Below are positions 21,132 through 60,778 of a DNA stretch of 64,000 bases, one piece after another. The notes under the pieces are model-generated. The model was not told where the DNA came from and made no database searches. It saw only the letters and a program-made list of their open reading frames with translations. The stretch is from a virus. The translations under genes and the position numbers were made by a program. How positions within the stretch are numbered: the first letter of the stretch is position 1; the number at the start of each line of letters is the position of its first letter. The stretch lies in IMG/VR virus record IMGVR_UViG_3300025626_002025. One strand, written 5' to 3'.

Positions 21132-24100
21132 CTAATCTACTTCTAAAATTGGTTCTCCACTTCCCCTTCCGCTATCAGATACCTTAAGAGTATTAGGATT
21201 AGTAGTAAATGTAACAATTGGCGAACCACCATCTAAAGTAGTTGCCGCAGTTTGTTTAGAGCCATTAAAAAATGAATTTTCCAATCCACTTGTTAAATCT
21301 CCAACGTTTCTATAATGTGTTGGGAAATATCCATTTAATGGAGTAACACCAACAACATCCCCACTTACAGTTGGGTCTACTGATTCATTTCCATCTGAAC
21401 CAGTAAATGGTAAAATATTTACAACTTCTTTAAATTTAGTTGTAGTTACAAATCGTGTACCTTGTGATGAATCTTGAGTTATGTTCTCAGGAATATCAAC
21501 TGTATATGATTTTTTTAGTAAAAATACTTTTACTCTTTCTTTTACAAGTTGTTTACTAGAATCAAATCTAGTTCTGATAGCGTTTGCATCATTTCCAAAT
21601 AATCCAAATCCTGCTACTGAAAGAGAATCTGGTCCTGTTCCTATCTGTGTGAACATATCAGACTCAAATTCACCACTAAGTGATTGACCAATTTCTGTAT
21701 TATTAATCGAAAGTGATAACCCAATATTTTCACCAGATAAAACGGTATTATCTTGAGTTAATATAGTACTATCTATTCCTATATTATCTGCAGATAATTC
21801 TCCAGATGTATCTAATGGTATAACTCCAGTGAAATCCTTAGATTCTGCCGAAAGATTGGTACTATTTTTAGTATCTATTACAGTTAGGTAATTTTTAGTT
21901 TCACCACTTGGTACTAAATCATTTACATTAATATTAGTTTTGTAATCTTTTTTAACCGCAGTTGATGGTTTCCATTCTGTTTTACTTCTTTCAAGAATAT
22001 GTGGTTCAATTAATAAACCTTCACTTGTTTGTGCTCTAACAGGTATTAAAGATAATATAATCTTAAATAATGATTGGTCAATATATCTAACTAATTGTAT
22101 ATATTCGTAAATATTTAAAGTATATCGGTCAAAGTAGTAGTTTCTTAATTGATTAAGTCTATTGTATGTTGGTTTATAATCATCAGATGGGTCTCCAATA
22201 TAATCATCTATATTAAACTCACCAAGTGAACGAATTATATCCATATTTATCTCTTTTGTTGGAGAGAAAAATAATCCTAATCTGTTTGAATCAACAGGAG
22301 ATTGGTCAAATGATTTTTTAGTAGCTCTACTTCTATAATTTAAATCCGATACTAATGTTTGTGTTTCAAATCTAACTTTATTTCCAAGACTATTACCCGT
22401 TGATGGTACAACTGCAGTTACTTCTCTATCATATGATTTATATTGAAATGGATATGAACTAATATCTGTAAAATTAGAAGCAATCGATTCAGTAACATAT
22501 GTTTGTATTATTGATACGTTTTTAATAGAGGTACTTGAGTATCTGTTTTTAGGATACTCATAATCATTTCTAAATAATAAATCAGTAGATGATGCAGATA
22601 TATGATTTCCATCTACTGCATCTGGTAATAATGTATGATTATCAATTCTTGATTGTGATAATGGAGTTCTCCATAATCTATACTCATCAACCGAAGCAGT
22701 TAAGTTAGTACCACCTAACGTTAGTAAACTACCACTCTTCCACGAATTTGTTCCTGAACGTATTTCTAAACTTGAACTAAGTTTAGTTCTAATTCTTCCT
22801 TGAAATGATTCCTGTGCATATACATCAAATTTATCAAATGAACCAGATACTACTTTTTGTACTACTATTTGAGTATATTCATCATTAAATAAAGAACCAG
22901 TTCCAGTTGAAGATGAAAGTATAGTATTACTTCCACTAATTTTAAATTGTACTTCTGCAAGAGAACCTGTATTTGCGATTAAATTCAATGACCACCCATC
23001 GGTACTCACTATCTCTTGGTCTTGTCTTTGTTCTGAGTTTATTCTTAGTTCAACTGCATTAGGATAATCATCACTAAATACTGATGTGTGTTCTTTCCAA
23101 GGTAAAGTAATAGCTGCAGAACCACTTAGTAATATTGAAGCAGTTCTATCATCATATGTGAATTTGGTTGGAGTATCTCCATCCGGGTCACTAGGTCCTC
23201 CAAATTCCATCACAGTCAGTAATGAAGCAGGAACACCATAACAACTTAACGCTGCGGATATTGCTCGTTTTGTACCTTTATGTTTATACAAATATGGTAG
23301 ATTGTTTAATAATCTTCTCCATATTTCATTTTGTCTATCCTTACCACTTAAGGAAGTTGTTTTATTACCATCCTTATCTTTACCAAATGCATATTCCCAA
23401 AGTGCTTGTCCAGAAACACCCATATCCGCATTCCATCCCAAGGATTCTAACATATGATATAACATAGTATCATCTATACCATATTCATGGGTATTTTCAA
23501 TTCTATTACTTTTAGATATTGCTTTGATATGTGTGTATATAACATCAAAGTGTTGTCCAATCATATCAGAGAATAAAATGAAATCAGAATTGTTTTCATC
23601 ATCTTTAATATGTTTTGGTAAATTAAATGATAATCGAGATGTGTTATTATAATCAAATGATTGAGCTGAATTTAATATTCCAGCAAACCAACTTATAGTA
23701 GATGAGTCATCTGATGATGAAAGTGTATTCTCTCCCGCTCCAGGATACGTTAATGAACCTGTTTCGTTATATAGATATTTTTCAAAAGAATCAAATCCCC
23801 TTCTTACTTCACCTATTTTAAATTGTATATTTTTAGCTTCTTGAGTTGTTGCAATTGATGAAGTTAGTGAATTTACAATATCATATTTAGATTGATATGA
23901 TTCTAATAATTTTACTTTATAGTAAAAATTTTGAACTCTCTCATCTGCAGATGAATATTTAATAAACTCTTTCCAATTATAATCTTCATCACCAGTTTGT
24001 TCTAATATTAGTCCAGTACCAACTTCATTTATTATTGAAGATTGGCTTACAAATTCTATATTTAAATTATCTAATGAAAAATTACTAGATGATACAAATT

Positions 24101-26744
24101 GATTTACAACATCGGTAGATGAGGTAGAACCACTTGTTATTAAATCATCCATTATTTGATATCCAATTGTATCAGTAACATCTAATTCAAAGTTAGGAGT
24201 TAATGGAGTACAGTTGTTAACTATATCATCTGTAATTGTTATTCTATCAATTAATGGAATTGATTGTATTTTGGATATCCAAATTTTATCATTAGGATTT
24301 ATATTTCGTGGTAATGGGTCATATAGTTTTAAAACTAATGATTTCTGTACCTCACCATATAATTCTTTTTTGTTAGTTGCTGGATTAATTCTAAAATCTG
24401 AAAATGTTGTTTCATCGATTCCCCATGTACCAATTAACCTATTATCACCATCACCTAGGTGCAAATAGTGTGTTAAAAATGGAGATGTATGTTCATCAAG
24501 TCCTTTATCTTCAAATTCACCAACAAATGCATTTCTTATATCACCAACAACTCTTCCTCTACGAAGTGTTAAATCTCCCTTATCAAAAGTAATATTTATT
24601 GATTCAACTTTACCTTTTGTTTTAGAATCACCTTCTGTATTATAAGGAATTAGTAATATTTTAAATTGTAATAAATCTCTATTATTTCTTAAAGTTTGAA
24701 ATCTTCTACCTTTTCTAATAATATCTTGTATATTAAGTTGAGAAACTCCCTGTGGTTCGAATTTACCTAAGAAAGATTCTCTTCTTGGAGTATCAAGATA
24801 TATTTCAACATAGTTCGTATTAATAGATTGCCAAGATATATTAAAATCTGCATCATATCCTTTAAAATCCGCTCCTTTAATTACTTGTGGATAGTTTATA
24901 TGAGTAATATCTGGACCAGGTAAATATGATTTACTTTCTACTGCAATTACTACCTTTTGAGTTTCACCACTTCCTCCTCGTTTTGAAACAGGCTGAACGT
25001 ATAATGTATAATTTCCTGCACCATTGGGGAAATCACTAGGTGATAATGAAATAGTACCTCGTAATGGTATTGTTTTTTTGTTCTTACCAAGGATATATAA
25101 TAAACTATCTGCATCAATTGACTCGTATGATATCTTAACAGAGTTTCTATCCGCTAGATTTAACTTAACACTACTTCTATTTAATTTAACTGCTGGTTGT
25201 GTAGGTACACTTGCAATAGGATTTTTAAATACTTGAACTTGTATATCGGTTTGACCACCTACAAGTTGAATTGTTGTTTCCAATCCCTTTCTTGAAGTAA
25301 CTTTTTTACCATTAGATGAATATTGAAATTCTCCCCTATGTGTAAAATCAGTTATACCATTTGCATAAAATGAAATACTTGGTATAGGGTCTCCTTCTTG
25401 TCTTTCAATTTTAAATGTTACAATATCATCATCATCTAATACACCCCCAACTTGTCCATAATTAGTTTTCCAAAGAATGGTATCATCCGTTGGTACATCA
25501 CCAATTATGCTAACTGAATAGCTTTCTTCAATGATAGGTGGTTCTATAATTTCAACAGATGATTTTCTTAAACTAAATCCACATCGTAGTGCGTGTGATT
25601 TAGGTCTTATAGATACATCTGCAATTTTAGCATTTGAATTCGGTTGTTGTACCCATTTACCATTTATTTTTCTCTCTAATACAATTTCGAAATAATTAAA
25701 TCCAACTTTACCTAATGATAGTTTTGGTGGTGCTGGTTTTGGTAAAGACTTTCCCTTAACAGGCGAACCTAGTGGCTCAATACCAAGATAATTGTTAAAA
25801 TTAATTTTTGGAGATGATGGTTTAGGAGCTCTTCTATTAAAGGCATTAAAAGTGGGATTAATTCGTCCCGCTCTTGTTTCAAAGGAATTGTTTCTTCCGA
25901 AGTTGATATTTCCTCCTCCTCTACCAAATTGTTCAGTTATTGGGTCAAGGAAGTCCACATCCATGTAATCTCTAAACTGACCACTACCATCAGTAGTTGC
26001 AGTGATTGTAGGAGTGTTATTTCTTACATTACCTCTAGTTGGTTGTGGATTAGTACGAATTGGTGGTGGTAAATCAGGTCGTACAATATCAATAACTGGT
26101 TTTACATCTTTATATAAAGTTTTTTGTTTAGAAGATATTCTCCACTCATCTCTTGATGTAAATCCTGATTTTTCTACTGTTATTGTCTTTCTACTAAGTA
26201 ATTCTTTTTCTGTAAAATTTAAAACTTTGGAATGAAAATCACCTGAACCATTTGTTGTACCCACAGATTTACCATTTACTTTAACTTCAGCTGGTCCTCT
26301 ATCACTAGCTATGGTCACAGTAACTGGTGCATTTTTATCTTTTACCACAGGTTTAATCTCTGGTTTTGGATATCTACATTTACCATTATCGTAAGTTGCT
26401 CTTCTATCAAAGTTAGTTGCCTTCGAATCCATACACCCACCTTTTACAAACACAAGAGGTGGTATTTTTATTGGGATAATTGGATTTGGTGGCAAATCAG
26501 GTTTTATTGGTGCTGGTGGTGGAAGTATCGGTTTTACGAAACGAGGTTTACTTATTTCTGGCACAGGACGTTTTGGTACAGTTATAGGTGGAGTAGGTCT
26601 TGATACTCTACCTCCACCTCCACCGTTACCAATAGGACGAAGTACCTCTGGTTCATATCCGAAAGGATTTTCCCCATTAGCTCTTCCAAAGTTATCCTCG
26701 TAACCTCTGAAATCATCGTAATTAAATTCTCTTCTATTTCTCAT
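21132..26744 (-). CDS. Very large baseplate protein with a gpI/gp7-like wedge segment, a LamG-like domain and a Pro/Gly/Arg-rich N-terminus
   Basis: MIGQHFD...LGW...EIWRRLLNNLPYLYKHKGTKRAI (KGT..AI wedge motif); VDEYRLWRTPLS LamG end; GCMD..A.N.D..A..D.G.C.Y repeat. Confidence 0.65.
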   Translation of the reverse strand: MRNRREFNYDDFRGYEDNFGRANGENPFGYEPEVLRPIGNGGGGGRVSRPTPPITVPKRPVPEISKPRFVKPILPPPAPIKPDLPPNPIIPIKIPPLVFVKGGCMDSKATNFDRRATYDNGKCRYPKPEIKPVVKDKNAPVTVTIASDRGPAEVKVNGKSVGTTNGSGDFHSKVLNFTEKELLSRKTITVEKSGFTSRDEWRISSKQKTLYKDVKPVIDIVRPDLPPPIRTNPQPTRGNVRNNTPTITATTDGSGQFRDYMDVDFLDPITEQFGRGGGNINFGRNNSFETRAGRINPTFNAFNRRAPKPSSPKINFNNYLGIEPLGSPVKGKSLPKPAPPKLSLGKVGFNYFEIVLERKINGKWVQQPNSNAKIADVSIRPKSHALRCGFSLRKSSVEIIEPPIIEESYSVSIIGDVPTDDTILWKTNYGQVGGVLDDDDIVTFKIERQEGDPIPSISFYANGITDFTHRGEFQYSSNGKKVTSRKGLETTIQLVGGQTDIQVQVFKNPIASVPTQPAVKLNRSSVKLNLADRNSVKISYESIDADSLLYILGKNKKTIPLRGTISLSPSDFPNGAGNYTLYVQPVSKRGGSGETQKVVIAVESKSYLPGPDITHINYPQVIKGADFKGYDADFNISWQSINTNYVEIYLDTPRRESFLGKFEPQGVSQLNIQDIIRKGRRFQTLRNNRDLLQFKILLIPYNTEGDSKTKGKVESINITFDKGDLTLRRGRVVGDIRNAFVGEFEDKGLDEHTSPFLTHYLHLGDGDNRLIGTWGIDETTFSDFRINPATNKKELYGEVQKSLVLKLYDPLPRNINPNDKIWISKIQSIPLIDRITITDDIVNNCTPLTPNFELDVTDTIGYQIMDDLITSGSTSSTDVVNQFVSSSNFSLDNLNIEFVSQSSIINEVGTGLILEQTGDEDYNWKEFIKYSSADERVQNFYYKVKLLESYQSKYDIVNSLTSSIATTQEAKNIQFKIGEVRRGFDSFEKYLYNETGSLTYPGAGENTLSSSDDSSTISWFAGILNSAQSFDYNNTSRLSFNLPKHIKDDENNSDFILFSDMIGQHFDVIYTHIKAISKSNRIENTHEYGIDDTMLYHMLESLGWNADMGVSGQALWEYAFGKDKDGNKTTSLSGKDRQNEIWRRLLNNLPYLYKHKGTKRAISAALSCYGVPASLLTVMEFGGPSDPDGDTPTKFTYDDRTASILLSGSAAITLPWKEHTSVFSDDYPNAVELRINSEQRQDQEIVSTDGWSLNLIANTGSLAEVQFKISGSNTILSSSTGTGSLFNDEYTQIVVQKVVSGSFDKFDVYAQESFQGRIRTKLSSSLEIRSGTNSWKSGSLLTLGGTNLTASVDEYRLWRTPLSQSRIDNHTLLPDAVDGNHISASSTDLLFRNDYEYPKNRYSSTSIKNVSIIQTYVTESIASNFTDISSYPFQYKSYDREVTAVVPSTGNSLGNKVRFETQTLVSDLNYRSRATKKSFDQSPVDSNRLGLFFSPTKEINMDIIRSLGEFNIDDYIGDPSDDYKPTYNRLNQLRNYYFDRYTLNIYEYIQLVRYIDQSLFKIILSLIPVRAQTSEGLLIEPHILERSKTEWKPSTAVKKDYKTNINVNDLVPSGETKNYLTVIDTKNSTNLSAESKDFTGVIPLDTSGELSADNIGIDSTILTQDNTVLSGENIGLSLSINNTEIGQSLSGEFESDMFTQIGTGPDSLSVAGFGLFGNDANAIRTRFDSSKQLVKERVKVFLLKKSYTVDIPENITQDSSQGTRFVTTTKFKEVVNILPFTGSDGNESVDPTVSGDVVGVTPLNGYFPTHYRNVGDLTSGLENSFFNGSKQTAATTLDGGSPIVTFTTNPNTLKVSDSGRGSGEPILEVD

Positions 26745-37334: not shown

Positions 37335-39035
37335 TTAAATAATTGTTTTTCTAATAATATAATTTCCAAGTACAAGAGTGTCCATTTCACAATCAAGGAA
37401 TGTTTTTATTGCATCTTCTGGTGTTAGAACCATTGTTTGGTCTTTTAAATTGAAAGAGGTATTGATAACAATTGGATACTCATTATCTATTTCAAGTTGA
37501 GTTAATAAAGAGTATATTCTTGGATTATCTTTAGAATCTAAACTCTGTATTCTTGCAGAATTATCAATGTGTGTTATAGCAGGAAGTTTATCAACGAATT
37601 CTTTCTTAACCTTTACTACTTGATTCATATATGGAACTAATCTATTATATTTAAAATATTTAACCTGTTTTTCTCTATGTACAATAGGAGCAAATGGTCT
37701 AAACCCTTCTCTTTTTTTAATCATCATATTTAAACGAGATTTCATTTGAGGGTCTCTTGGATTTGCTAATATAGAACGATTACCTAGTGCTCTTGCACCA
37801 AACTCCATTCTACCCTCAAACCAACCAATTATATTTCCATCAGTAATTTCTTTAGATATAATTTTTATTATTTGAGAATTAACTACATATTCTCCATAGA
37901 TATATTTCTTAAATTTATCAATAGTAGATTTTATAGATTCCTTTGAATACTCTGGACCTAAATATGGATTGGTGTTTATCTTTCTCAATGATACATTATT
38001 ATCATAGTAATAATGCAAAGCACATCCAATTGATGAACCAGAATCAGATGGTGCAGGTGGTATCCATAAATTATTATAAGAAGTTTTTTCTAATATCTTT
38101 CCATTTGCAGTTCCATTATACGCACAACCTCCACTTAAACATAAGTTACGAGATGATGATAACGAAAAAGCTTTTTCCAATAAATTAAAAAAATATTTTT
38201 CATATATAGCTTGTACAGATGCCGCTAAATCTTTATGGTCTTGTGTAAGTGGTTCTTCTGGTAATCTGTTTGGTAGTTCAAGTAACATTCCAAGTTTTTC
38301 ATTAAACATATGTGTATCTGAATATTCATATGTAAATAAATCCATGTTTAATTTAAAGTTACCCCCTTTACCTGATATAATTGAATCGAATTTATCTATA
38401 TACCTAGATGAATCACCATACGGTGCCAATCCCATCATTTTATATTCCCCTTCATTTGGTTTAAATCCCAAGAATGCAGTAAATGCAGAATAGAACATTC
38501 CAAGTGAATGTGGAAATTTTATTGAATCTAATTTTTTAAGTTTGTTTTTTGTTCCCTCATATATTGTAGTTGTTTCCCATTCACCAACCCCATCAACTGA
38601 AACTATAATAGCGTTATTGTATGGAGAAGTATAATATGAATACGCTGCATGAGATAGGTGATGTTCGGTAAACACAACATTTGTTTTACTACCAGTATAA
38701 GAATCAATATCTAACATTAATTCTTTATATGCAGTTTTGTTATTAATAATAATACTTTTTCTGTTAAAGTATTTTAATACTCCACCTTTTTTTGTAGAGG
38801 TTTCTATTCTATCTAATTTTTCAAAAGGAGCTTCATAGAAACAAATAGAATCTAAATCTTCTTTGGTTATAGAATACTTTTTAAATAACCAATCAATCGT
38901 ATTATGTGGAAATGAAGAATCGTGTTTTATACCTGTGAATCTTTCTTCTTCACACGCTCCTAACACTATACCATCTTTTATTAAAGATGCCGCTGAGTCA
39001 TGATATCCACAACTAATTCCTAATATATAACTCAT
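37335..39035 (-). CDS. Carbamoyltransferase (NodU/CmcH/TobZ family)
   Basis: HDSAA, EEERF, HHLSHA, DGVGE, EYKMMGLAPYG, SGGCAYN, EFGARALGNRSIL, KKREGFRPFAP and NTSFN. Confidence 0.93.
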   Translation of the reverse strand: MSYILGISCGYHDSAASLIKDGIVLGACEEERFTGIKHDSSFPHNTIDWLFKKYSITKEDLDSICFYEAPFEKLDRIETSTKKGGVLKYFNRKSIIINNKTAYKELMLDIDSYTGSKTNVVFTEHHLSHAAYSYYTSPYNNAIIVSVDGVGEWETTTIYEGTKNKLKKLDSIKFPHSLGMFYSAFTAFLGFKPNEGEYKMMGLAPYGDSSRYIDKFDSIISGKGGNFKLNMDLFTYEYSDTHMFNEKLGMLLELPNRLPEEPLTQDHKDLAASVQAIYEKYFFNLLEKAFSLSSSRNLCLSGGCAYNGTANGKILEKTSYNNLWIPPAPSDSGSSIGCALHYYYDNNVSLRKINTNPYLGPEYSKESIKSTIDKFKKYIYGEYVVNSQIIKIISKEITDGNIIGWFEGRMEFGARALGNRSILANPRDPQMKSRLNMMIKKREGFRPFAPIVHREKQVKYFKYNRLVPYMNQVVKVKKEFVDKLPAITHIDNSARIQSLDSKDNPRIYSLLTQLEIDNEYPIVINTSFNLKDQTMVLTPEDAIKTFLDCEMDTLVLGNYIIRKTII

Positions 39036-52071: not shown

Positions 52072-52547
52072 TCTAATACTATTTTTATAGAATCAGATAT
52101 TAGATGTTCTCTAATTGTACCTGTTAATATAAGAGTATCTCCTAGCATTGTTCTAACTGGTCCTATTACATTATTAACAGTTCCATCCATAACATATGAA
52201 GAAGAGTTACTTACATCTACTAACATATCTTGATATACCCATTGTAAGTTACTTTCCCATTCTACTTTTAAAGGAGGTAGATTAAGTGTATTACCAACAG
52301 TACCACTTACTGTGTGTATTGTTTGATTAGTATTTTGATTTAGTTCTAAATGATAGTATCCATTATTATCGATAGGTAATCTACCATCTATTTCTAATGT
52401 TGGTTGTTCTAATACTAAGATATCATCTTCAACACTACAACTCATGAGTGATGATAATAGTAACAATACCACAAGTAATACTCCAAAAAATGCTATTCCA
52501 CTTAATGCGAATTTTTCTGTTTGTTCTTTTCTATGATTATCTTTCAT
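52068..52547 (-). CDS. Putative lipoprotein
   Basis: Hydrophobic signal ending in an LMSC lipobox. Confidence 0.6.
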   Translation of the reverse strand: MKDNHRKEQTEKFALSGIAFFGVLLVVLLLLSSLMSCSVEDDILVLEQPTLEIDGRLPIDNNGYYHLELNQNTNQTIHTVSGTVGNTLNLPPLKVEWESNLQWVYQDMLVDVSNSSSYVMDGTVNNVIGPVRTMLGDTLILTGTIREHLISDSIKIVLE

Positions 52548-53065
52548 TACAATAACTTTTCTAATATACTATCCCAAGTTGGATACTCATTTGGTGTGTA
52601 GTTGTTTTCCCAATCCAATCCGAATCTTAACAACTCACCACTAAACTCACCAGCTCCATTCTTAACTCTATCATCAATAAGGTAATCACCCATTAATAAA
52701 TCTTTTCTGTGAGTGATAAACATTTTCTTGTGGAATAGGTTTCCAAAGTGTTCTTCAATCCAAAATCTTTTATCAGTATTTGAACCAGGATTACCCCAAG
52801 GAGCAGCAGTTGCAATGAATAATTCATACTTACCACTTTCATGTAATTTCTTTACAGCTTCAATTGCTCCTTTGATTGGAGGTGGGTTTCTGAATATACC
52901 TTGGATATGGTCAGGATTATCTTTGTATCGTTCTTTAAGATAAGGGTGAAGTTTGAAAAACTTATCAAATGCTTTTTCTAAATCAACTAAAACTCCATCC
53001 ATATCGATGTAAACTACTTTTTTCTTCAAATTTTTTGTTTTATTAAGGTTAGTACTCTCACTCAT
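52547..53065 (-). CDS. 5'(3')-deoxyribonucleotidase (NT5C, HAD family)
   Basis: YIDMDGVL, IATAAPW, K..W and RKDLLMGDYLIDD. Confidence 0.88.
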   Translation of the reverse strand: MSESTNLNKTKNLKKKVVYIDMDGVLVDLEKAFDKFFKLHPYLKERYKDNPDHIQGIFRNPPPIKGAIEAVKKLHESGKYELFIATAAPWGNPGSNTDKRFWIEEHFGNLFHKKMFITHRKDLLMGDYLIDDRVKNGAGEFSGELLRFGLDWENNYTPNEYPTWDSILEKLL

Positions 53066-54300: not shown

Positions 54301-54331
54301 TAAATATACGAAAAATAATTGAATTATACAA
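54301..54331 (-). promoter_or_regulatory. Bacteroidota-type promoter (TTG-N20-TATATTTA)
   Basis: Same motif and spacing. Confidence 0.65.
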
Positions 54332-54914
54332 GTCTTTTTTGACTTATTTTTTTGGGTTTTTGTTTAATCCAAGAACCATCATCAAATACCTTTTCAGGAT
54401 ATCCAATTATCTCATGTATTGCAGTAACTACACCAGGCCAATCTTTTTGATAATCATGACCACCAATATATCCACCTGGTTTTACTTTAGGATAATACAA
54501 TGTTAAATCTTGCTTTACTGATTCGTATAAGTGATTAGCATCTATGTAAATAAAATCTATACTATTATCTTCAAAGGTATCAACAACATTGTAACTATAA
54601 TCTGATATTAAAGATATGTTATCAAAGTATCGTGTATTTATTTCGAATTGTTGTTTAACAAGTTCCCAAGAATAATCATGGTTCTCGTTAAATATCTCGT
54701 GTCCCTCATGTGGTTCTATTGTATAAATCTTATCAAATATTTGAGATGATGCAAATAGCATCGTGGATTCTCCCATATAAGAACCTATCTCAATCATAGT
54801 AGTGTTCTTATCCTTTATAGTTTTAAGTTCCGTTAGCATATCTACAAACCCAAAGAACATATTATTTATATTACCTTTGAACCAATGTGGTGTATGTAAT
54901 CTTTGAGTATTCAT
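54324..54914 (-). CDS. Class I SAM-dependent methyltransferase (Methyltransf_24-like)
   Basis: IEIGSYMGEST, IDFIYIDANHLYESVKQD and KVKPGGYIGGHDY. Confidence 0.85.
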   Translation of the reverse strand: MNTQRLHTPHWFKGNINNMFFGFVDMLTELKTIKDKNTTMIEIGSYMGESTMLFASSQIFDKIYTIEPHEGHEIFNENHDYSWELVKQQFEINTRYFDNISLISDYSYNVVDTFEDNSIDFIYIDANHLYESVKQDLTLYYPKVKPGGYIGGHDYQKDWPGVVTAIHEIIGYPEKVFDDGSWIKQKPKKISQKRLV

Positions 54915-55525
54915 ATAATAGATTTTACTATTCTTTCTTTATAGAAGTTTTTAAAAATAATTTGTTTATCACTATAAACACACGCATATAAACATCTGGG
55001 TTTATCTGAGTTGTTTGGGTTTGATTGATGAGGAGTATCTCCATGTATTACAACAATATCTCCAGCTTTTGGATATATCTTCGTATCTCTTAATTGTAGT
55101 GTTCCGTTTTCATCCGTAAAATCAGTTAGTATTACGGACATATTTATTGTATTACCACCTTCATTAAAGTTACCTCCGATTGAATTATCAGTATGTTCTT
55201 CAAATCCAAAATTATCATTGGGTAATTTAACAACAACCTGGTCGTTATACAACCAAACATCTTCAGTATTTAAAAGTTTTTTTGCAATATCAATCATGAG
55301 ATTTGATTTATAAAAATCTAAAAGATAGGTATCATACATACCTGCACAACCTACCCCTTTCCAATGAGTATCTCCACCATATTTACAAGGTTGACCTATC
55401 TTATCATTTACCCATTTTCTTAATTTAATAGAACGAGTTTGTAATTCATGAACTACATCTTCACTTATCTTTTTTTGTAAATGTACCCATCCATGTTTTT
55501 TATAAAATTGTAAATCATTATGCAT
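54911..55525 (-). CDS. PhyH-family 2OG-Fe(II) dioxygenase
   Basis: FYKKHGW, VKLP...HTD, ENGTL and AGDIVVIHGDTPHQSNPN...PR. Confidence 0.82.
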   Translation of the reverse strand: MHNDLQFYKKHGWVHLQKKISEDVVHELQTRSIKLRKWVNDKIGQPCKYGGDTHWKGVGCAGMYDTYLLDFYKSNLMIDIAKKLLNTEDVWLYNDQVVVKLPNDNFGFEEHTDNSIGGNFNEGGNTINMSVILTDFTDENGTLQLRDTKIYPKAGDIVVIHGDTPHQSNPNNSDKPRCLYACVYSDKQIIFKNFYKERIVKSII

Positions 55526-56183
55526 AATTTTGTAACAATCTTAATATCTCATCTAATGATTCATGTCTATGGTTATCTAATAAGTTAATTGAGTAAACAT
55601 ATTTAGATTCTTTTACTTTGGCAACATCATGTATTGCTGAATCGTTTGGAAATTTTAAATCAATTTGTTGGGGGTCTCCACAAAGTATCATAGTAGAACC
55701 TTTACCCAATCTACCCAATACCATACTAAGTTGTTGTTTAGTTAAGTTTTGAAACTCATCTACAATAACACACGCATTATCAAAGGTTCTTCCTCTGAAG
55801 TGAGATAATGATACTAGTTCTATCTTCTCATCGTTCTCCATCTTTTCCAATATTGCTGGTTTGTTATAAACCTTTCTCATATTAGAACGAATTGGAACTA
55901 ACCACGGCTCCATCTTTTCATTTAAAGAACCTGGCAGATATCCATTATCTTCATTAGATACAGTTGGTCTTGTTATAATGATTTGATTTATATTTCTCTG
56001 AAAGAACATATCTAATCCGATTTGTACTGCAAGTAATGTCTTACCACTTCCTGCCTTTCCAAGAACAAAGTTATACGGATGATATAATATATTTGTTTTA
56101 GCCTCTTTCTGCTCATCCGATAATGATATTGAAAATCTAACTTTTCCCTTTGGGGGATTTTTACCAATGTTTTGTGTTGCCAT
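55518..56183 (-). CDS. phoH: PhoH-family ATPase
   Basis: GKAGSGKT, ITRP, GYLPG, RGRTF, DEFQN and GDPQQID. Confidence 0.93.
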   Translation of the reverse strand: MATQNIGKNPPKGKVRFSISLSDEQKEAKTNILYHPYNFVLGKAGSGKTLLAVQIGLDMFFQRNINQIIITRPTVSNEDNGYLPGSLNEKMEPWLVPIRSNMRKVYNKPAILEKMENDEKIELVSLSHFRGRTFDNACVIVDEFQNLTKQQLSMVLGRLGKGSTMILCGDPQQIDLKFPNDSAIHDVAKVKESKYVYSINLLDNHRHESLDEILRLLQNYA

Positions 56184-56714
56184 TTATTCCTTTATAAAAT
56201 TAAAATTAGTGAAACCTATTTTTTTTAGAAGATGAATTGATTTGTGATTCCAATTATCAACATACGCATATAAACAATCTATTCCATCCATGTACAAAAA
56301 TTTCTTATATGTAAGATAATACATAGCAGTACCACTACCTTTTGGTTTTTTTACTTTTTGACTTAGAAAAGAACCACCAGTGTATATTTCATTTTCTTGT
56401 AATGGTTGATTCGTTATTTCCCATAGTGGAGTGAAGTTAGGATTTCCCCACGTCCATCCAATTGGTAAATCGTTGTAATAAAATAGTTGTACCGATGAGT
56501 TAAAGGATTCGAATCTTCTCTTTAACATTTGTTTGTCTGGAATACCTACCCAAGTGAAGTCATCTTTCATTAGATTGGATAAGTGCAATAGTTGCTCAAG
56601 ATATTGTGGATAGTTCTTTTTATTTACAAAAACTACTTTGTAATCTTCTGAGAAGTTAAATTCAACTAGGGTATCTTTCGATAGTGTAAGTTGAAATATT
56701 TTTGTTGTATCCAT
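56184..56714 (-). CDS. GNAT-family acetyltransferase
   Basis: KGSGTAM (motif A-like) and VDNWNHKSIHLLKKIGF (motif B). Confidence 0.65.
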   Translation of the reverse strand: MDTTKIFQLTLSKDTLVEFNFSEDYKVVFVNKKNYPQYLEQLLHLSNLMKDDFTWVGIPDKQMLKRRFESFNSSVQLFYYNDLPIGWTWGNPNFTPLWEITNQPLQENEIYTGGSFLSQKVKKPKGSGTAMYYLTYKKFLYMDGIDCLYAYVDNWNHKSIHLLKKIGFTNFNFIKE

Positions 56715-56741
56715 AAAGTAACATCTTTGTTCATATAAATA

Positions 56742-57557
56742 TCAAATAAAAGATGTTTTTTCAACATCATTCAATATATTATATACTTCTTGGATACATA
56801 CTTTGTAGAATTTTATTCCACCAACCCAGTGAGAATACCTATGTCCATTGGATTCACTTAAAAATCCAACATTAAATTTATTTGATTCTATTGTGTTTGC
56901 AAAATGATATTGGCAGATTATAAGTGATGGGATTAGTTTCTTTTTTCTTAAATTATCAATTGGTTCTATGTTGTTTAGATAATGATTTTTCATTTCATAG
57001 TAACCACTTATTAATGCATCTTTAGTAGATTGGTTGTTGAATTTTATAACACCAACGTTACAAGAAAAGGTATTAGTATTGGTGTAGTTCTTTACTAACT
57101 TATCAGTATTATATTTTTCAAATATTTCTAGCATAGTTACATATCCATTGTAACTATCCCATTCTTTATTTAATACATTTTTCTTAGTTTCTTTATTTTC
57201 AAATATAGCATCGTATCCGAATTCATTCATAAAATCCAATCGAGAAGTTAGAATAATATCTCCATCAAATGTTATACAATCTAAATCATTCTGTGTATGT
57301 ATCCATATTTTTAAATCATCTACTAAATCAAATTTAATATTATCAATACAATAACTACTATCAATGTATTCTTTTAAATTAGATATGGTTATAGAATCTC
57401 CATATAATTTAATTTTATATCCAAACTCCCTTGCTCGTATCATGGAAGCTTTATACATATCGTATAGATATTTTAAATCAGAAACACAAGTTGTTTTTGT
57501 TTTAGAAGTTTCATCATAAAGACCCATCCTAGAATCAAAGCTATATGTTAATGTCAT
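56742..57557 (-). CDS. GT-A-like (DUF6734-like) putative glycosyltransferase
   Basis: KLYGD, LKIW...ITFDGDI (DxD), NVGVI and YSHWVG. Confidence 0.5.
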   Translation of the reverse strand: MTLTYSFDSRMGLYDETSKTKTTCVSDLKYLYDMYKASMIRAREFGYKIKLYGDSITISNLKEYIDSSYCIDNIKFDLVDDLKIWIHTQNDLDCITFDGDIILTSRLDFMNEFGYDAIFENKETKKNVLNKEWDSYNGYVTMLEIFEKYNTDKLVKNYTNTNTFSCNVGVIKFNNQSTKDALISGYYEMKNHYLNNIEPIDNLRKKKLIPSLIICQYHFANTIESNKFNVGFLSESNGHRYSHWVGGIKFYKVCIQEVYNILNDVEKTSFI

Positions 57558-58483
57558 AATAGTGTTGTTCCTTTTTCTAAGTTTTTAATTAGGGTATTCA
57601 TCTTATTTGAAAATAAAGTTCTTTCTTCTTCCTTTTCGATTAACTTTACCTTATGAAGCCAAACATGATAATATTTAATTGATATAGATTTGTATTTACC
57701 AAGATATACTTTATAAGGCATACCACCATAGTTTAAATCAACCCCATCTGGATACTTCCAATCATCTGCATGAGAAATATATGCACATTCTTCCAAACAT
57801 CCTATGTTTAGTTTCATAAATCTTGCTATATATCCAAGAATACCTTGGTCTGCAAGTAGCCAAGTATCTACACCAGTTTCTACTTCAGTATTATAAATAA
57901 TTTTTTTATGTAGTTCCCAATACTCTTTTAGTAGAGTTATATTATTTACATAAAGAAAACTTGTATTTGGATATAAGTTGTTTGGATAGTAATATGGTAA
58001 ATCTAGTTGTTTAAATTTATTATTAGAAACGTATAAGTCATTTCTACTCAATTCCCATTGATTGTGAATTAAATCATAGTTTTTTAATAATCCATAATCT
58101 ACTTTTTCTAAAAGTATAAAATCTAAATCAAGAAAAATAAATGGTTCTTTTTGATTACATATTACATATGTTTTACCAGATGTCCAATATGTACCTGCAT
58201 CAAATGTGTGGTTGTCTGTAAATTCATTTAGTAAATCAACATTGATTTCATCATAACATTCGAGAAGATTATATTTTTTGAATACTTCATATCCTAATGA
58301 ATCTGTATATAGTATAGATTTACCTACATATTTACTTGCAGATAGTGCAGATGTTTTTGTATATTCAACTTCATAACTTAATAAATCAACCCCCTTAACC
58401 CAGTTGTGTTTATCTGAATTATATTCTATTGAATTGTTTTTATATAGGTACGGTTTTGTCCAATAAACAAATATTGAATTCAT
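57554..58483 (-). CDS. GT-A-like (DUF6734-like) putative glycosyltransferase
   Basis: ILYTDS.G, YWTSGK...QKEPFIFLDLDF (DxD), PNTSF, ADQ and YYHVW; distant paralog of its neighbour. Confidence 0.55.
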   Translation of the reverse strand: MNSIFVYWTKPYLYKNNSIEYNSDKHNWVKGVDLLSYEVEYTKTSALSASKYVGKSILYTDSLGYEVFKKYNLLECYDEINVDLLNEFTDNHTFDAGTYWTSGKTYVICNQKEPFIFLDLDFILLEKVDYGLLKNYDLIHNQWELSRNDLYVSNNKFKQLDLPYYYPNNLYPNTSFLYVNNITLLKEYWELHKKIIYNTEVETGVDTWLLADQGILGYIARFMKLNIGCLEECAYISHADDWKYPDGVDLNYGGMPYKVYLGKYKSISIKYYHVWLHKVKLIEKEEERTLFSNKMNTLIKNLEKGTTLL

Positions 58484-58507
58484 AACATATTGGTATATAG
58501 ATGTGGT

Positions 58508-58657
58508 TTACGAATGTTTATCTAAAACATAAGAAAAGAAGTTTCCCATAATTCTATTTACTTCAACCTTTTCCGCCGCACTTACTGTTACACTTTGTGC
58601 ATTATTTTGTTTGGTTTTGTAAATTAAACTCGGTATTTCTGATTTTGTAATAGCCAT
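58508..58657 (-). CDS. 49-aa peptide (not in the ORF track): MAITKSEIPSLIYKTKQNNAQSVTVSAAEKVEVNRIMGNFFSYVLDKHS
   Basis: AAAGGA RBS; fills the gap between the 570-aa gene and the GT-like gene. Confidence 0.65.
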   Translation of the reverse strand: MAITKSEIPSLIYKTKQNNAQSVTVSAAEKVEVNRIMGNFFSYVLDKHS

Positions 58658-58672
58658 AATTGTATTATCCTT

Positions 58673-60385
58673 TTATTGTACTTTTTTAAAGTTGTGTACA
58701 GTTGCAGTTAACATTACTTGTTGATTTCCGGATGCATCATTTGCAAGTATATAATTATCTTCTGTTTCAACATCCATCTCTATAAAAGAACCTGTGTTAT
58801 TATTTAGTATATGTACACTTGATGTTAAAATTGGAATTAAACTAGAATCTACATTAAATAAGAAATCATCTCCAGGTATTATTGAGGTAACATTTTTAAA
58901 TTTAAATTCATTTGAAGAACTTACATAAAGTAAAGCATTCGTATCTGTTGACATAAAATTCGATTCATCACTTCCACTTACTCTTAATTCATATATCATG
59001 TTATTCCACATCTCAATTGAAGTAGGTGTTGAAACTACAACAGATTGTGTATAAGCAGAATTTGCAGGTAATGTGTTTCCTGCAACAGATACATTTATAA
59101 AGTGAGAAGCTAAATCCTCATCATCAGTTATACCAGGTATATAAAACGCCTTTACAACAGAACCACTAACTATATCTGTTATATCAACTATCTCGTTACT
59201 GGCTGATACAACATTTTCTGTTTCGAATACTCCTCGTTTTCTACTATTCTCTTTTATATAAGAAGTTGAAAATTCATGGTAATGTTTTCTATTATAAAAG
59301 TGAGCTTCTATATCAAAATCTCCAAAATTTACATCATCGTATGTAGGTAACTCTAATATACTCTTTCCACTAACAGTTCCTAAACTTAGGTGAGTAAGAG
59401 ATGAACCATATACAATCCCATAATGTCTAATAGAAGTAACATGATTATCAACTATCGAACCAGAACCATATTCAAAGTTAGTATAATAACAATGACTATC
59501 TAATGCAGATGATGATAGGAAATACTCAATACGAGCTTCATCATGTTCAGAACCAGTTTCATATGTACCATCTACAAAAATATGTGTAGGTAATAAATCT
59601 TGATTAGGTATCCATTCAACCTCATCTTCACTACCAGTCATATGCCACATTCTTGGATAATAACTTCCATTTATTTCAATAAAGTCTCCATCCGCTTGCT
59701 CTACATAACTACCTGATACTAAATCATGTGTGTATTGTAAGTTTTGAACATCAATATAGTTACCATCAACTATAGCATGAGTTCCGCTATCACTAGTTAT
59801 ATATATTCCATCATCCAAGTGTCCACCTAATTTAATAAATGAAACAGTACTTGTTGACCATTGACTTTTAAGAACAATATCTGGAAAAGTTCCTGGATTA
59901 GTTTTTCTTTCCAATACATCAATATGCATATCGGAACTACTAACAAAGAATGGAATTGCATCACTCGATGCAGTGTACTCATTAAATATAGATAAAGAAT
60001 TTACATCATGTTTAGCATATACAGAATCAACGATAGCGTTTTCATCATATGCAAATCTAAGAATAAATTTGTTAGATGCATCGGTTACCGCAGTTGGGTA
60101 TATTGTGTTGAAATCTTCTTCGTGTGATGTCCATGTTGTGATAAAAGAGGCATTATCTCTAATAGATGCTGATAGGTGGTTTACAAGTGATTGTTGTATT
60201 GATGGTTTATATATTACTTCAATTGTATCTATTGTTTCGTTTTGTAGTAATGTTATAAGTCCAGAGTAATCAATTCCGTCATCATCAACCGCGCCAAATA
60301 CATCCATAGTATCTGTATTAAGTTCTATGAATTTAAGTCCATTATCTGTTTTAATAAAATCTGCTGAGAAAAATGTTCCCTTCAT
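58673..60385 (-). CDS. Circularly permuted ATP-grasp-like domain fused to a C-terminal Hint-like domain
   Basis: N-terminal SADFIKTDNGLKFIELNTDT (GspS-like D-F...LK..E.N.D) and DIVLK; C-terminal ITDIVSGSVV...IIPGDDFL...MDVETEDNYI...VHN. Confidence 0.55.
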   Translation of the reverse strand: MKGTFFSADFIKTDNGLKFIELNTDTMDVFGAVDDDGIDYSGLITLLQNETIDTIEVIYKPSIQQSLVNHLSASIRDNASFITTWTSHEEDFNTIYPTAVTDASNKFILRFAYDENAIVDSVYAKHDVNSLSIFNEYTASSDAIPFFVSSSDMHIDVLERKTNPGTFPDIVLKSQWSTSTVSFIKLGGHLDDGIYITSDSGTHAIVDGNYIDVQNLQYTHDLVSGSYVEQADGDFIEINGSYYPRMWHMTGSEDEVEWIPNQDLLPTHIFVDGTYETGSEHDEARIEYFLSSSALDSHCYYTNFEYGSGSIVDNHVTSIRHYGIVYGSSLTHLSLGTVSGKSILELPTYDDVNFGDFDIEAHFYNRKHYHEFSTSYIKENSRKRGVFETENVVSASNEIVDITDIVSGSVVKAFYIPGITDDEDLASHFINVSVAGNTLPANSAYTQSVVVSTPTSIEMWNNMIYELRVSGSDESNFMSTDTNALLYVSSSNEFKFKNVTSIIPGDDFLFNVDSSLIPILTSSVHILNNNTGSFIEMDVETEDNYILANDASGNQQVMLTATVHNFKKVQ

Positions 60386-60408
60386 GGTGTTGTCCTGTTT
60401 ATCTTTAC

Positions 60409-60416
60409 TATAAATA
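60409..60416 (-). promoter_or_regulatory. Putative late promoter TATTTATA heading the ATP-grasp/Hint operon
   Basis: About 23 nt upstream of the ATG at 60385. Confidence 0.6.
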
Positions 60417-60418
60417 TA

Positions 60419-60778
60419 CTAAAGTAAGTTTTTGTGATTCTGTAATCTTTTTTTTGAATTTCTTTTGATAAAATTACTTTTGTATTTTGATACTTCACTA
60501 CACCCTTCATAGTTTTCGTTTTTTTCAAAATACTTTATAGCTATATCATATACTTCCATAAATTCAGATTCTTTTATTAATATAGCATTTCCTGCATTTG
60601 GATGAACAACTACAACTATTTTATTTCTACCATTTTTATTAGCAGAATTAATTCCTCTAGTTAGTTCTGTAAATATCGAAGTTCCTCTCGATTCAAGAAA
60701 TCTTTTTATTCGTGGATTATCATCATCTTCTATTAGATACTTTCTCCAATCAACTGTATTTAGTAATTGTGTATTCAT
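60419..60778 (-). CDS. Hypothetical protein with a UVR-like C-terminal helix
   Basis: AIKYFEKNENYEGCSEV. Confidence 0.55.
   Translation of the reverse strand: MNTQLLNTVDWRKYLIEDDDNPRIKRFLESRGTSIFTELTRGINSANKNGRNKIVVVVHPNAGNAILIKESEFMEVYDIAIKYFEKNENYEGCSEVSKYKSNFIKRNSKKRLQNHKNLL

What the first reader, a model, noticed from the sequence alone, without database searches (positions are those of the whole stretch)
54324..60416. Late cluster: ATP-grasp-like/Hint fusion, a small peptide and tailoring enzymes (RiPP-like or virion-modifying system)
Seen in sequence, in transcription order: late motif at 60409, the 570-aa protein, an unannotated 49-aa ORF, two DxD GT-A/DUF6734-like proteins, a second late motif at 56734, then GNAT, PhoH, a PhyH dioxygenase and a methyltransferase. 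The 570-aa N-terminus SADFIKTDNGLKFIELNTDT matches the R-x-D-F...LK..E.N.D catalytic motif of glutathionylspermidine-synthase-type, circularly permuted ATP-grasp amide ligases, although the Arg is missing. Its C-terminus is Hint-like. A ligase-like domain, an autoprocessing domain, a peptide and glycosyl/acetyl/hydroxyl/methyl enzymes together resemble a biosynthetic cluster, and I know no described phage system with this layout. The seven [ST]GS sites suggest the 570-aa protein is itself a modified virion component.
Basis: partly seen in the sequence, partly recalled or inferred. Interest (0 to 1): 0.8.

Follow-up and report, generated by a model that had tools for sequence, protein, structure and literature searches.

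The report
Self-trimming phage ligase with tagged helper enzymes
An uncultured marine phage carries a late-gene cassette of a ligase-like enzyme fused to a half-disabled self-cutting domain, a tiny partner protein found in every relative, and modifying enzymes that share a two-residue tail; I found this design in no paper, family library or cultured phage that I searched, so it may be a new viral way to modify a peptide or protein.

Summary
The 570-aa protein (58673-60385, minus strand) models confidently (pLDDT 89). Residues 1-380 are a circularly permuted ATP-grasp of the GspS/YgiC/glutathione-synthetase class (VIA Z 8-9.8). The Mg triad D9/E21/N23 is near-invariant, but the catalytic Arg is Ser. 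Residues 385-565 are a Hint fold (Z 17.4 to BIL domains) with Gly in place of the N-terminal nucleophile and a 98-100% conserved His-Asn, followed by a 5-aa tail.

The 49-aa ORF is real. A homologue lies directly downstream in 79 of 80 related loci.

Modifying enzymes (SET, 2OG oxygenases, radical SAM, DUF6734) concentrate just downstream of this pair. They nearly all end in two aliphatic residues, against 9% expected. In this window both DUF6734 proteins, PhyH and the methyltransferase carry that tail. PhoH and the GNAT-like protein do not.

A classical RiPP mechanism and a virion role are not shown.

This clade is the minimal form: no add-on Hint, plus a unique 97-aa insert. This scan has already described the same system on other DNA at least eight times. 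I found no Pfam or PHROG model, no cultured-phage homologue and no paper. Chemistry and product are unknown.

The parts
60409..60417 (-). Late-type promoter-like motif ATATTTATA, 24 nt upstream of the 570-aa gene
   Evidence: 16 matches in the window vs 5.8 expected. 13 are on the coding strand, mostly 17-32 nt before starts of structural genes.
60419..60778 (-). 119-aa upstream protein (u119) ending ..KNLL; frequent -1/-2 neighbour of the ligase gene
   Evidence: Within 5 genes upstream of the ligase gene in 15/44 dereplicated loci, at -1/-2 in 12. 10 of 19 family members carry the aliphatic tail. No Pfam match.
59234..60385 (-). aa 1-384 of the 570-aa protein: circularly permuted ATP-grasp domain (D9, E21, N23, R110, K173, R320 near-invariant; Ser7 replaces the catalytic Arg)
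   Evidence: AF2 pLDDT 90.2. Foldseek top hits are YjfC, YgiC, glutathione synthetases and GspS. The top 11 VIA-wide hits are all this class, Z 8-9.8. hhalign to YgiC, E 0.0017. Conservation.
59540..59830 (-). aa 186-282: clade-specific beta-rich insert at the position where ATP-grasp enzymes carry their lid
   Evidence: Present in only 5 of 124 aligned family members; the others have 0-17 aa here. pLDDT 40-87. No Pfam match.
58691..59233 (-). aa 385-565: degenerate Hint domain (Gly385 instead of Cys/Ser; E540, D543, H564, N565 conserved)
   Evidence: VIA Z 17.4, rmsd 2.2 over 145 aa to BIL2 6y75; Z 16.4 to 2lwy. Intein residue 1 aligns with G385. Conservation.
58676..58690 (-). 5-aa tail FKKVQ after His-Asn, the predicted leaving group of Asn cyclisation
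   Evidence: In 201 relatives with a terminal HN the tail is never 0 residues; the first residue is K, R or F in 177.
58508..58657 (-). 49-aa partner protein (invariant Tyr13, K/R14, near-invariant His48; ends KHS)
   Evidence: A homologous 43-55-aa ORF starts within 110 nt (mostly 2-34 nt) after the ligase gene in 79/80 loci, 54 unique sequences. The exact sequence occurs on 198 contigs.
57554..58483 (-). 309-aa DUF6734 protein ending ..TTLL (tagged accessory enzyme)
   Evidence: Pfam DUF6734, 7.3e-7. Tail. Its homologue in L003 ends ..KTIL.
56742..57557 (-). 271-aa DUF6734-like paralogue ending ..TSFI (tagged accessory enzyme), invariant DxD
   Evidence: All 23 unique family members carry the tail.
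56734..56742 (-). Second ATATTTATA motif, 20 nt upstream of the 176-aa gene
56184..56714 (-). 176-aa probable GNAT-like protein, untagged; travels with PhoH
   Evidence: Sub-threshold GNAT hits. Tail present in 3/21. Directly precedes PhoH in most loci that hold both.
55518..56183 (-). PhoH-like ATPase, untagged; probably a bystander
   Evidence: Pfam 1.6e-49. 0/15 tagged.
54911..55525 (-). PhyH-type 2OG-Fe(II) dioxygenase ending ..KSII (tagged)
   Evidence: Pfam 2.9e-10. Tail. No homologue in the 80 loci.
54324..54914 (-). Methyltransf_24 methyltransferase ending ..KRLV (tagged)
   Evidence: Pfam 1.5e-19. Tail. Homologues in L005 and L077 end ..KSLL and ..KSII.

Best explanation
The 570-aa protein and the 49-aa protein form the invariant core of a late-expressed phage module for protein or peptide modification.

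Shown:
- The large protein is a circularly permuted ATP-grasp domain of the class that activates a C-terminal or terminal carboxylate and joins it to an amine (GspS, YgiC/YjfC, glutathione synthetase, Cp1B).
- It is fused to a Hint domain that has lost its N-terminal nucleophile but keeps the C-terminal His-Asn, the block-F acidic residues and at least one residue after Asn.
- The partner gene is always next door.
- A lineage-variable set of enzymes follows. These enzymes share a two-residue aliphatic C-terminal tail, often K-x-[LIF]-[ILF]. Here they are two DUF6734 proteins, PhyH and a methyltransferase.

Inferred:
- Asn565 cyclises and clips off FKKVQ. In relatives the same step clips off one to three optional complete Hint domains, so every form matures to the same core.
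- The ATP-grasp then uses ATP to couple a peptide carboxylate to an amine. The carboxylate would be the partner's KHS end or the enzymes' tail.
- The shared tail docks the accessory enzymes to this hub, so they act on a common substrate, most simply the small protein.
- PhoH and the GNAT-like gene are neighbours, not members.
For: - Fold of the N-part.
- Motif alignment D9=D102, E21=E114, N23=N116 of YgiC.
- Near-invariance of D9, E21, N23, R110, K173 and R320.
- Hint fold, with G385 at intein position 1.
- H564/N565 98-100% conserved, E540/D543 96%.
- The tail after HN is never absent.
- Add-on Hints were gained or lost at least 13 times on the core tree, so they are optional.
- Partner gene in 79/80 loci.
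- Enzyme enrichment: 30/41 at +2 against 0/33 at -6, odds ratio 4.8.
- Tail in 92-100% of the 2OG(f0), SET, radical SAM and DUF6734 families, against 0% in PhoH and the partner and 9% expected.
- In a complete 245-kb relative, the six genes right after the pair are all tagged, against about 9% (27/293) outside 40-60 kb.
- 2OG homologues in six cultured phages that lack the ligase are untagged (0/6).
- Same late motif as the structural genes.
- YgiC is a peptide-spermidine ligase (PMC11762307).
- Mutating R, D, E or N of this motif abolishes or strongly attenuates Cp1B activity (PMC12568646).
Against: - The catalytic Arg of the R-x-D motif is Ser (84% of the family). The lid or Gly-rich loop is absent in most members and replaced here by an unrelated insert. 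Canonical ATP-grasp catalysis is therefore uncertain.
- Structural Z-scores for the N-part (about 9.8) are only moderately above background.
- No Pfam ATP-grasp or Hint model matches.
- No cleavage, ATP use, complex or product has been observed, and no co-fold could be run.
- The loci are related and enzyme genes sit in tandem arrays, so the enrichment P-values are inflated.
- In this window only 4 of 6 downstream genes carry the tail, and in degenerate form.
- Aliphatic C-termini could instead be degrons.
Confidence: 0.5

Rival explanations
1. Classical RiPP pathway. The 49-aa protein is a precursor peptide. The ATP-grasp installs side-chain cross-links or a C-terminal amide, the other enzymes tailor it, and the product is released at lysis.
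For: A short ORF is always adjacent. ATP-grasp, SET, 2OG, radical SAM and methyltransferase genes co-cluster. The partner has an invariant Tyr and conserved Lys residues.
Against: - The small protein is conserved over its whole length, with no leader/core split.
- The ATP-grasp is not of the RimK/MdnC type used by graspetides; classical ATP-grasps score only Z 4.5-6.6.
- No protease or exporter was seen.
- Enzyme-borne tags are the reverse of leader-peptide logic.
Confidence: 0.2
2. Non-catalytic hub. The ATP-grasp is a pseudo-enzyme whose carboxylate pocket merely binds the aliphatic C-terminal tails. It organises or packages the tagged enzymes, for example for delivery into the virion. The Hint domain is structural.
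For: The catalytic Arg and the lid are missing. The gene has the late promoter motif shared with structural genes. [ST]GS enrichment is shared only with tail/baseplate-region giants.
Against: The Mg-binding triad and several basic residues are 96-100% conserved, which is unusual for a dead enzyme. The gene sits among nucleotide-metabolism and auxiliary genes, not in the virion module.
Confidence: 0.2
3. Coincidental neighbourhood. The ligase-partner pair is an independent two-gene unit that sits at the edge of a hyperplastic island of auxiliary enzymes. The aliphatic tails are degrons or a lineage habit unrelated to it.
For: T4-like marine phages without this ligase also carry 2OG oxygenase genes. 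2OG hits also occur far from the ligase in some genomes. A second small group of tagged genes lies at 200-210 kb in G002.
Against: The tail is absent from 2OG homologues of phages without the ligase. Tagged genes peak immediately after the pair across 42 dereplicated loci and in different arrangements.
Confidence: 0.1

Closest known systems
E. coli YgiC/YjfC (peptide-spermidine ligases), the GspS synthetase domain and trypanothione synthetase
   Same: Circularly permuted ATP-grasp fold (Z 9.8, about 203-210 aligned residues). Same D-x11-E-x-N-x-D-T motif in the first hairpin. These enzymes act on C-terminal carboxylates of peptides.
   Different: Lacks the first ~95 residues of YgiC, the R of R-x-D and the lid loop. 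No Pfam GSP_synth match. Fused to a Hint domain. Viral only.
Eukaryotic glutathione synthetase and fungal Cp1B (E-64 pathway)
   Same: Same permuted topology (Z 8-9.8). Mutating R, D, E or N of this motif abolishes or strongly attenuates Cp1B activity (PMC12568646).
   Different: Much smaller, Arg absent, no recognisable substrate loops.
Type A bacterial intein-like (BIL) domains (C. thermocellum 2LWY; Tetrahymena BUBL BIL2 6Y75)
   Same: Best structural matches of aa 380-567 (Z 16.4-17.4). Ends in His-Asn with no +1 nucleophile. BIL2 makes Lys isopeptide bonds without ATP (PMC8616854).
   Different: No Cys1 and no conserved block-B His, so no thioester is possible. Only Asn cyclisation remains. 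The complete BIL-like Hints of relatives are absent here.
RiPP gene clusters (graspetides/microviridins)
   Same: Small peptide gene next to an ATP-grasp and a variable set of tailoring enzymes.
   Different: Different ATP-grasp class. The peptide has no leader/core split. Recognition tags sit on the enzymes rather than on the peptide. A self-cleaving Hint is present.
LysW/LysX-ArgX amino-carrier system
   Same: An ATP-grasp ligase works on the C-terminus of a ~54-aa carrier protein. ArgX is the best non-permuted hit (Z 6.6).
   Different: LysW has an acidic Zn-ribbon and a Glu-rich end. The partner here is basic, Cys-free and ends KHS.

Membership tests
Circularly permuted ATP-grasp (GspS / YgiC / glutathione synthetase class) | ATP-grasp fold whose Mg-binding hairpin comes first in the chain | tested here: met
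   The top 11 of 48,161 chains are all this class, covering model residues 1-380. Classical ATP-grasps match only residues ~51-380 at Z 4.5-6.6. Foldseek agrees.
Circularly permuted ATP-grasp (GspS / YgiC / glutathione synthetase class) | Asp ... Glu-x-Asn metal/phosphate triad | tested here: met
   D9 100%, E21 99%, N23 98%. They align with YgiC D102, E114 and N116.
Circularly permuted ATP-grasp (GspS / YgiC / glutathione synthetase class) | Catalytic Arg two residues before the Asp (R-x-D) | tested here: not met
   Ser7 (84% Ser in the family) sits opposite YgiC R100.
Circularly permuted ATP-grasp (GspS / YgiC / glutathione synthetase class) | Lid with Gly-rich loop over ATP | tested here: inconclusive
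   Most members have 0-17 aa at this position. This clade has an unrelated 97-aa insert. No coordinates were available to inspect.
Circularly permuted ATP-grasp (GspS / YgiC / glutathione synthetase class) | Match to the Pfam GSP_synth / CP_ATPgrasp models | tested here: not met
   No Pfam hit, even at E<=5.
Circularly permuted ATP-grasp (GspS / YgiC / glutathione synthetase class) | ATP-dependent carboxylate-amine ligation | not testable with these tools
   Needs an enzyme assay.
Hint / intein superfamily (BIL type A) | Hint fold | tested here: met
   Z 17.4, rmsd 2.2 over 145 aa (6y75). More than 100 intein, BIL and Hedgehog chains score Z>=8.
Hint / intein superfamily (BIL type A) | Cys/Ser/Thr nucleophile at position 1 | tested here: not met
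   Intein residue 1 aligns with Gly385, which is Gly in 88% of the family.
Hint / intein superfamily (BIL type A) | Block B Thr-x-x-His | tested here: not met
   No conserved His or Thr between residues 385 and 540. The only conserved His is H564.
Hint / intein superfamily (BIL type A) | C-terminal His-Asn followed by a scissile bond | tested here: met
   H564 98%, N565 100%. The tail is at least 1 residue in all 201 proteins with a terminal HN.
Hint / intein superfamily (BIL type A) | +1 Cys/Ser/Thr for splicing | tested here: not met
   Phe566 here. K, R or F follow Asn in 177 of 201.
RiPP biosynthetic cluster | Short peptide gene beside the modifying enzymes | tested here: met
RiPP biosynthetic cluster | Precursor with a conserved leader and a variable core (or the reverse) | tested here: not met
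   Conserved positions are spread over the whole 45-55 aa: Y13, K14, NR, EK, the helix and the KH end.
RiPP biosynthetic cluster | A modified peptide product | not testable with these tools
   Needs mass spectrometry.
DUF6734 (PF20508) | Pfam match above the gathering score | tested here: met
   The 309-aa protein scores 29.3 bits against a cut-off of 27. The 271-aa protein qualifies only through paralogy and Atlas clusters. The GT-A fold was not tested.
GNAT acetyltransferase (176-aa protein) | Pfam Acetyltransf match above the cut-off | tested here: inconclusive
   15.7 bits against a cut-off of 20.7. Profile hits to GNAT structures at E 0.006-0.1.

The most novel reading that the evidence does not exclude
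This is the minimal form of a new kind of viral machine. A self-maturing ATP-grasp hub reads a C-terminal aliphatic address tail on otherwise unrelated enzymes, or covalently couples that tail or the 49-aa partner to an amine. The phage could thereby assemble, conjugate or deliver a customised set of protein-modifying enzymes. That would be a tagging or assembly logic distinct from RiPP leader recognition, ubiquitin-like conjugation and capsid-targeting sequences.
Probability: 0.3. Interest if true: 0.9.

Novelty: new variant of a known kind. Interest (0 to 1): 0.72.

Why it matters
Both domains belong to well-studied enzyme classes, but three things appear undescribed: their fusion, the obligatory 45-55-aa partner, and a shared C-terminal tail on the surrounding SET, 2OG, radical SAM, DUF6734 and methyltransferase enzymes. 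If the module makes or attaches a modified peptide, it would be a virus-only post-translational chemistry in abundant uncultured aquatic (marine and freshwater) phages.

It would also assign a role to the many orphan oxygenase-type genes that sit next to this pair in these phages. In addition, it would supply a compact self-processing ligase and a portable docking tag for protein engineering.

This window holds the smallest natural version (no add-on Hints, four tagged enzymes), which makes it a convenient form to express and test.

Tried and rejected
- Sequence searches gave nothing for the 570-aa protein: Pfam, PHROGs and PDB by sequence, tblastn against 50,697 GenBank phage records, and BFVD fold search of the N-part (best E 0.059).
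- The upstream ORFs do not supply a missing N-terminal half of the ATP-grasp. All relatives start at MKGT..., so a split or fractured gene was rejected.
- The C-terminus as a true intein was rejected: no Cys1 and no +1 nucleophile.
- The Pfam DUF6734 model was too weak to map copies genome-wide.
So I could not test whether the partner ever occurs without the ligase, or whether any cellular genome holds the family.
- The window's own assembly is not held.
- The sigma-70 and terminator scan of the region was at chance level.
- Literature searches for Hint plus ATP-grasp plus phage, BIL plus marine phage, and permuted ATP-grasp found no description.

Full report
**Context.** The window is a low-GC (~31%) stretch with essentially all genes on the minus strand. 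It carries a baseplate wedge protein, thymidylate synthase, helicase, carbamoyltransferase, dCMP deaminase and Hsp20. The exact 570-aa protein occurs on contigs up to 203 kb. The closest cultured relatives by helicase are Cellulophaga and Bacteroides phages at ~38% identity. The source is therefore a large uncultured myovirus, probably of Bacteroidota.

**Observation.**
- PhoH, PhyH and Methyltransf_24 are clear Pfam hits, and the 309-aa protein just passes DUF6734.
- The 271-aa protein is a weak paralogue of the 309-aa protein. It has an invariant D-x-D and lies in DUF6734 Atlas clusters.
- The 176-aa protein gives only sub-threshold GNAT signals.
- The 'late motif' is ATATTTATA. It occurs 16 times against 5.8 expected, 13 on the coding strand. 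Ten of those lie 17-32 nt before ORF starts, including the 2300-aa and 1870-aa structural giants. The 570-aa and 176-aa genes each have one.

**The 570-aa protein: family.**
- It has no Pfam, PHROG or PDB sequence match and no tblastn match in 50,697 GenBank phage records.
- It does have a metagenomic family of 176 clusters at 50% identity among 1.84 billion representatives.
- Nearly all full-length members start MKGT[LF]FSADF...LLE.NTDT.

**The 570-aa protein: N-terminal part.**
- With a 124-sequence alignment, AlphaFold gives pLDDT 89.1 and pTM 0.83.
- Residues 1-384 modelled alone reach pLDDT 90.2.
- Foldseek then finds YjfC (5.8e-5), YgiC, plant, yeast and human glutathione synthetases, GspS and trypanothione synthetase.
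- An independent all-against-48,161-chain VIA search puts eleven members of that permuted class on top. Scores are Z 8-9.8 with 197-231 aligned residues over model residues 1-380.
- Classical ATP-grasps follow at Z 4.5-6.6 and cover only residues ~51-380. That pattern is the signature of the circular permutation.
- hhalign places family residues 8-94 on YgiC 101-189. D9, E21 and N23 fall on D102, E114 and N116, and Ser7 falls on R100.
- D9, E21, N23, R110, K173 and R320 are 96-100% conserved.
- That Arg matters: in Cp1B, Ala substitutions of R, D, E and N of this motif abolish or attenuate activity (PMC12568646).
- The lid region is only 0-17 aa in most members.
- I therefore treat 'active ligase' as likely, not shown.

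**The 570-aa protein: Hint domain.**
- Residues 380-567 match BIL2 of Tetrahymena (Z 17.4, rmsd 2.2, 145 aa), the C. thermocellum BIL, mini-inteins and Hedgehog.
- Intein residue 1 aligns with Gly385, which is Gly in 88% of the family.
- No block-B His is conserved.
- E540 and D543 (96%), H564 (98%) and N565 (100%) are kept.
- In 201 relatives with a terminal His-Asn, at least one residue always follows it, usually Lys.
- The only chemistry left is Asn cyclisation. Here that would release FKKVQ.
- Relatives carry one, two or three complete Hint domains (CF.AGT...HN) after this point.
- On a tree of the core, the number of add-on Hints changes at least 30 times and presence/absence at least 13 times. 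They are optional add-ons.
- The window's clade (five aligned members, 99% support) has none. Instead it has a unique 97-aa beta-rich insert at aa 186-282.

**The 49-aa ORF.**
- In 79 of 80 IMG/VR loci holding the family, a 43-55-aa ORF starts within 110 nt (mostly 2-34 nt) after the ligase gene on the same strand. The exception is a 1-kb fragment.
- There are 54 unique sequences. The consensus is p.iYKk...NR...lt..EK..v..i..kF..yfk.KH[SLMT].
- Tyr13 is invariant and His48 nearly so.
- The window's ORF fits this consensus and has an AGGA 12 nt upstream.
- This is an obligate gene pair, whatever the number of add-on Hints.

**The 'tailoring enzymes': position.**
- Close relatives (L001/L003, 65% identity) keep the order u119, ligase, partner, DUF6734, DUF6734, GNAT-like, PhoH. 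They lack PhyH and the methyltransferase, and add a 2OG oxygenase after the partner.
- I examined 42 loci dereplicated at 80% ligase identity. The gene right after the partner is SET (12), 2OG oxygenase (11), GNAT-like (6) or DUF6734 (1) in 30 of 41 cases.
- Such families make up about half of positions +3 and +4. They make up 6/40 at -1 and 0/33 at -6.
- In five near-complete genomes, 8 of 16 strong 2OG hits lie within 10 kb of the ligase.

**The 'tailoring enzymes': shared C-terminal tail.**
- I followed a lead from earlier reports of this scan on other genomes and tested for a shared C-terminal tail.

| Family | Unique sequences whose last two residues are both L/I/V/F/M |
|---|---|
| 2OG (f0) | 98/106 |
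| SET | 27/30 |
| Radical SAM | 24/25 |
| DUF6734 | 23/23 |
| Unnamed family f4 | 30/31 |
| PhoH | 0/15 |
| Partner proteins | 0/38 |
| GNAT-like | 3/21 |

- The expectation from composition is 9%.
- Tagged genes peak at +2 to +7 (54-71%) and at -1 (50%).
- In the complete 245-kb relative G002, the six genes right after the pair all end K-x-[LIV]-[LI]-like, against about 9% (27/293) outside the 40-60 kb region.
- 2OG homologues in six cultured phages without the ligase end GPxW[RK]-like, so 0/6 are tagged.
- In this window 12 of 75 ORFs are tagged, and 7 of these lie at 52.5-60.8 kb:
  - u119 (..KNLL)
  - both DUF6734 proteins (..TTLL, ..TSFI)
  - PhyH (..KSII)
  - the methyltransferase (..KRLV)
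  - a 61-aa ORF
  - the NT5C-like hydrolase
- PhoH and the GNAT-like protein are untagged.

**Mechanism.**
- Shown: the folds, the conserved residues, the gene pair, the positional enrichment and the shared tail.
- Inferred: Asn565 clips the tail. The ATP-grasp, whose relatives activate peptide C-terminal carboxylates (YgiC is a peptide-spermidine ligase, PMC11762307), couples a carboxylate to an amine. The tail docks the enzymes to the hub. The small protein is the common substrate or an adaptor.
- Rivals are a classical RiPP pathway, a non-catalytic hub or packaging adaptor, and a chance neighbourhood.
- The [ST]GS enrichment is real (7 observed against 0.74 expected). In this window it is shared only with the tail/baseplate-region proteins. 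The sites are not conserved and may simply mark beta-turns.

**Novelty.** I found no paper, Pfam or PHROG model, solved structure or cultured phage with this design. This scan has already reported the same system on other DNA at least eight times. This window adds the minimal, add-on-free clade with a new insert, plus independent replication of the tail and its controls.

Noticed in passing
window 4790-11692, 17302-18435, 19149-20378, 21132-26744 and 58673-60385: [ST]GS tripeptides are 2.5- to 12-fold over-represented in only these proteins among 55 ORFs of 100 aa or more. Four lie in the tail/baseplate region and the fifth is the ligase. Individual sites in the ligase family are poorly conserved.
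   Followed up: partly
window 37335-39035: The carbamoyltransferase ends ..RKTII, a tail like that of the tagged enzymes, although it lies 20 kb from the ligase. In another clade its homologue sits 3-5 genes upstream of the ligase.
   Followed up: partly
window 52547-53065: The NT5C/HAD-like nucleotidase ends ..EKLL, and all 12 unique homologues in related loci carry the aliphatic tail. The tag is therefore not limited to protein-modifying enzyme types.
   Followed up: partly
window, 13 minus-strand sites (e.g. 11716, 18454, 26768, 34478, 51181, 56734, 60409, 61571): ATATTTATA is a strong candidate late-promoter element: 16 matches against 5.8 expected, typically 17-32 nt upstream of start codons.
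   Followed up: partly
family members P0231, P0233 and 30 others: 32 of 233 family proteins lack a terminal His-Asn near the end and carry other C-terminal extensions. Some of these are Cys-rich peptides, others are Vint-type Hint domains.
   Followed up: no
G002 (L100), 200-210 kb: A second small group of four tail-bearing genes lies about 155 kb from the ligase in the complete 245-kb relative.
   Followed up: no
window 56184-56714: The best PDB profile hits of the GNAT-like protein include polyamine, spermidine and diamine acetyltransferases. That is a possible polyamine link to a YgiC-like ligase, but all hits are below significance.
   Followed up: partly
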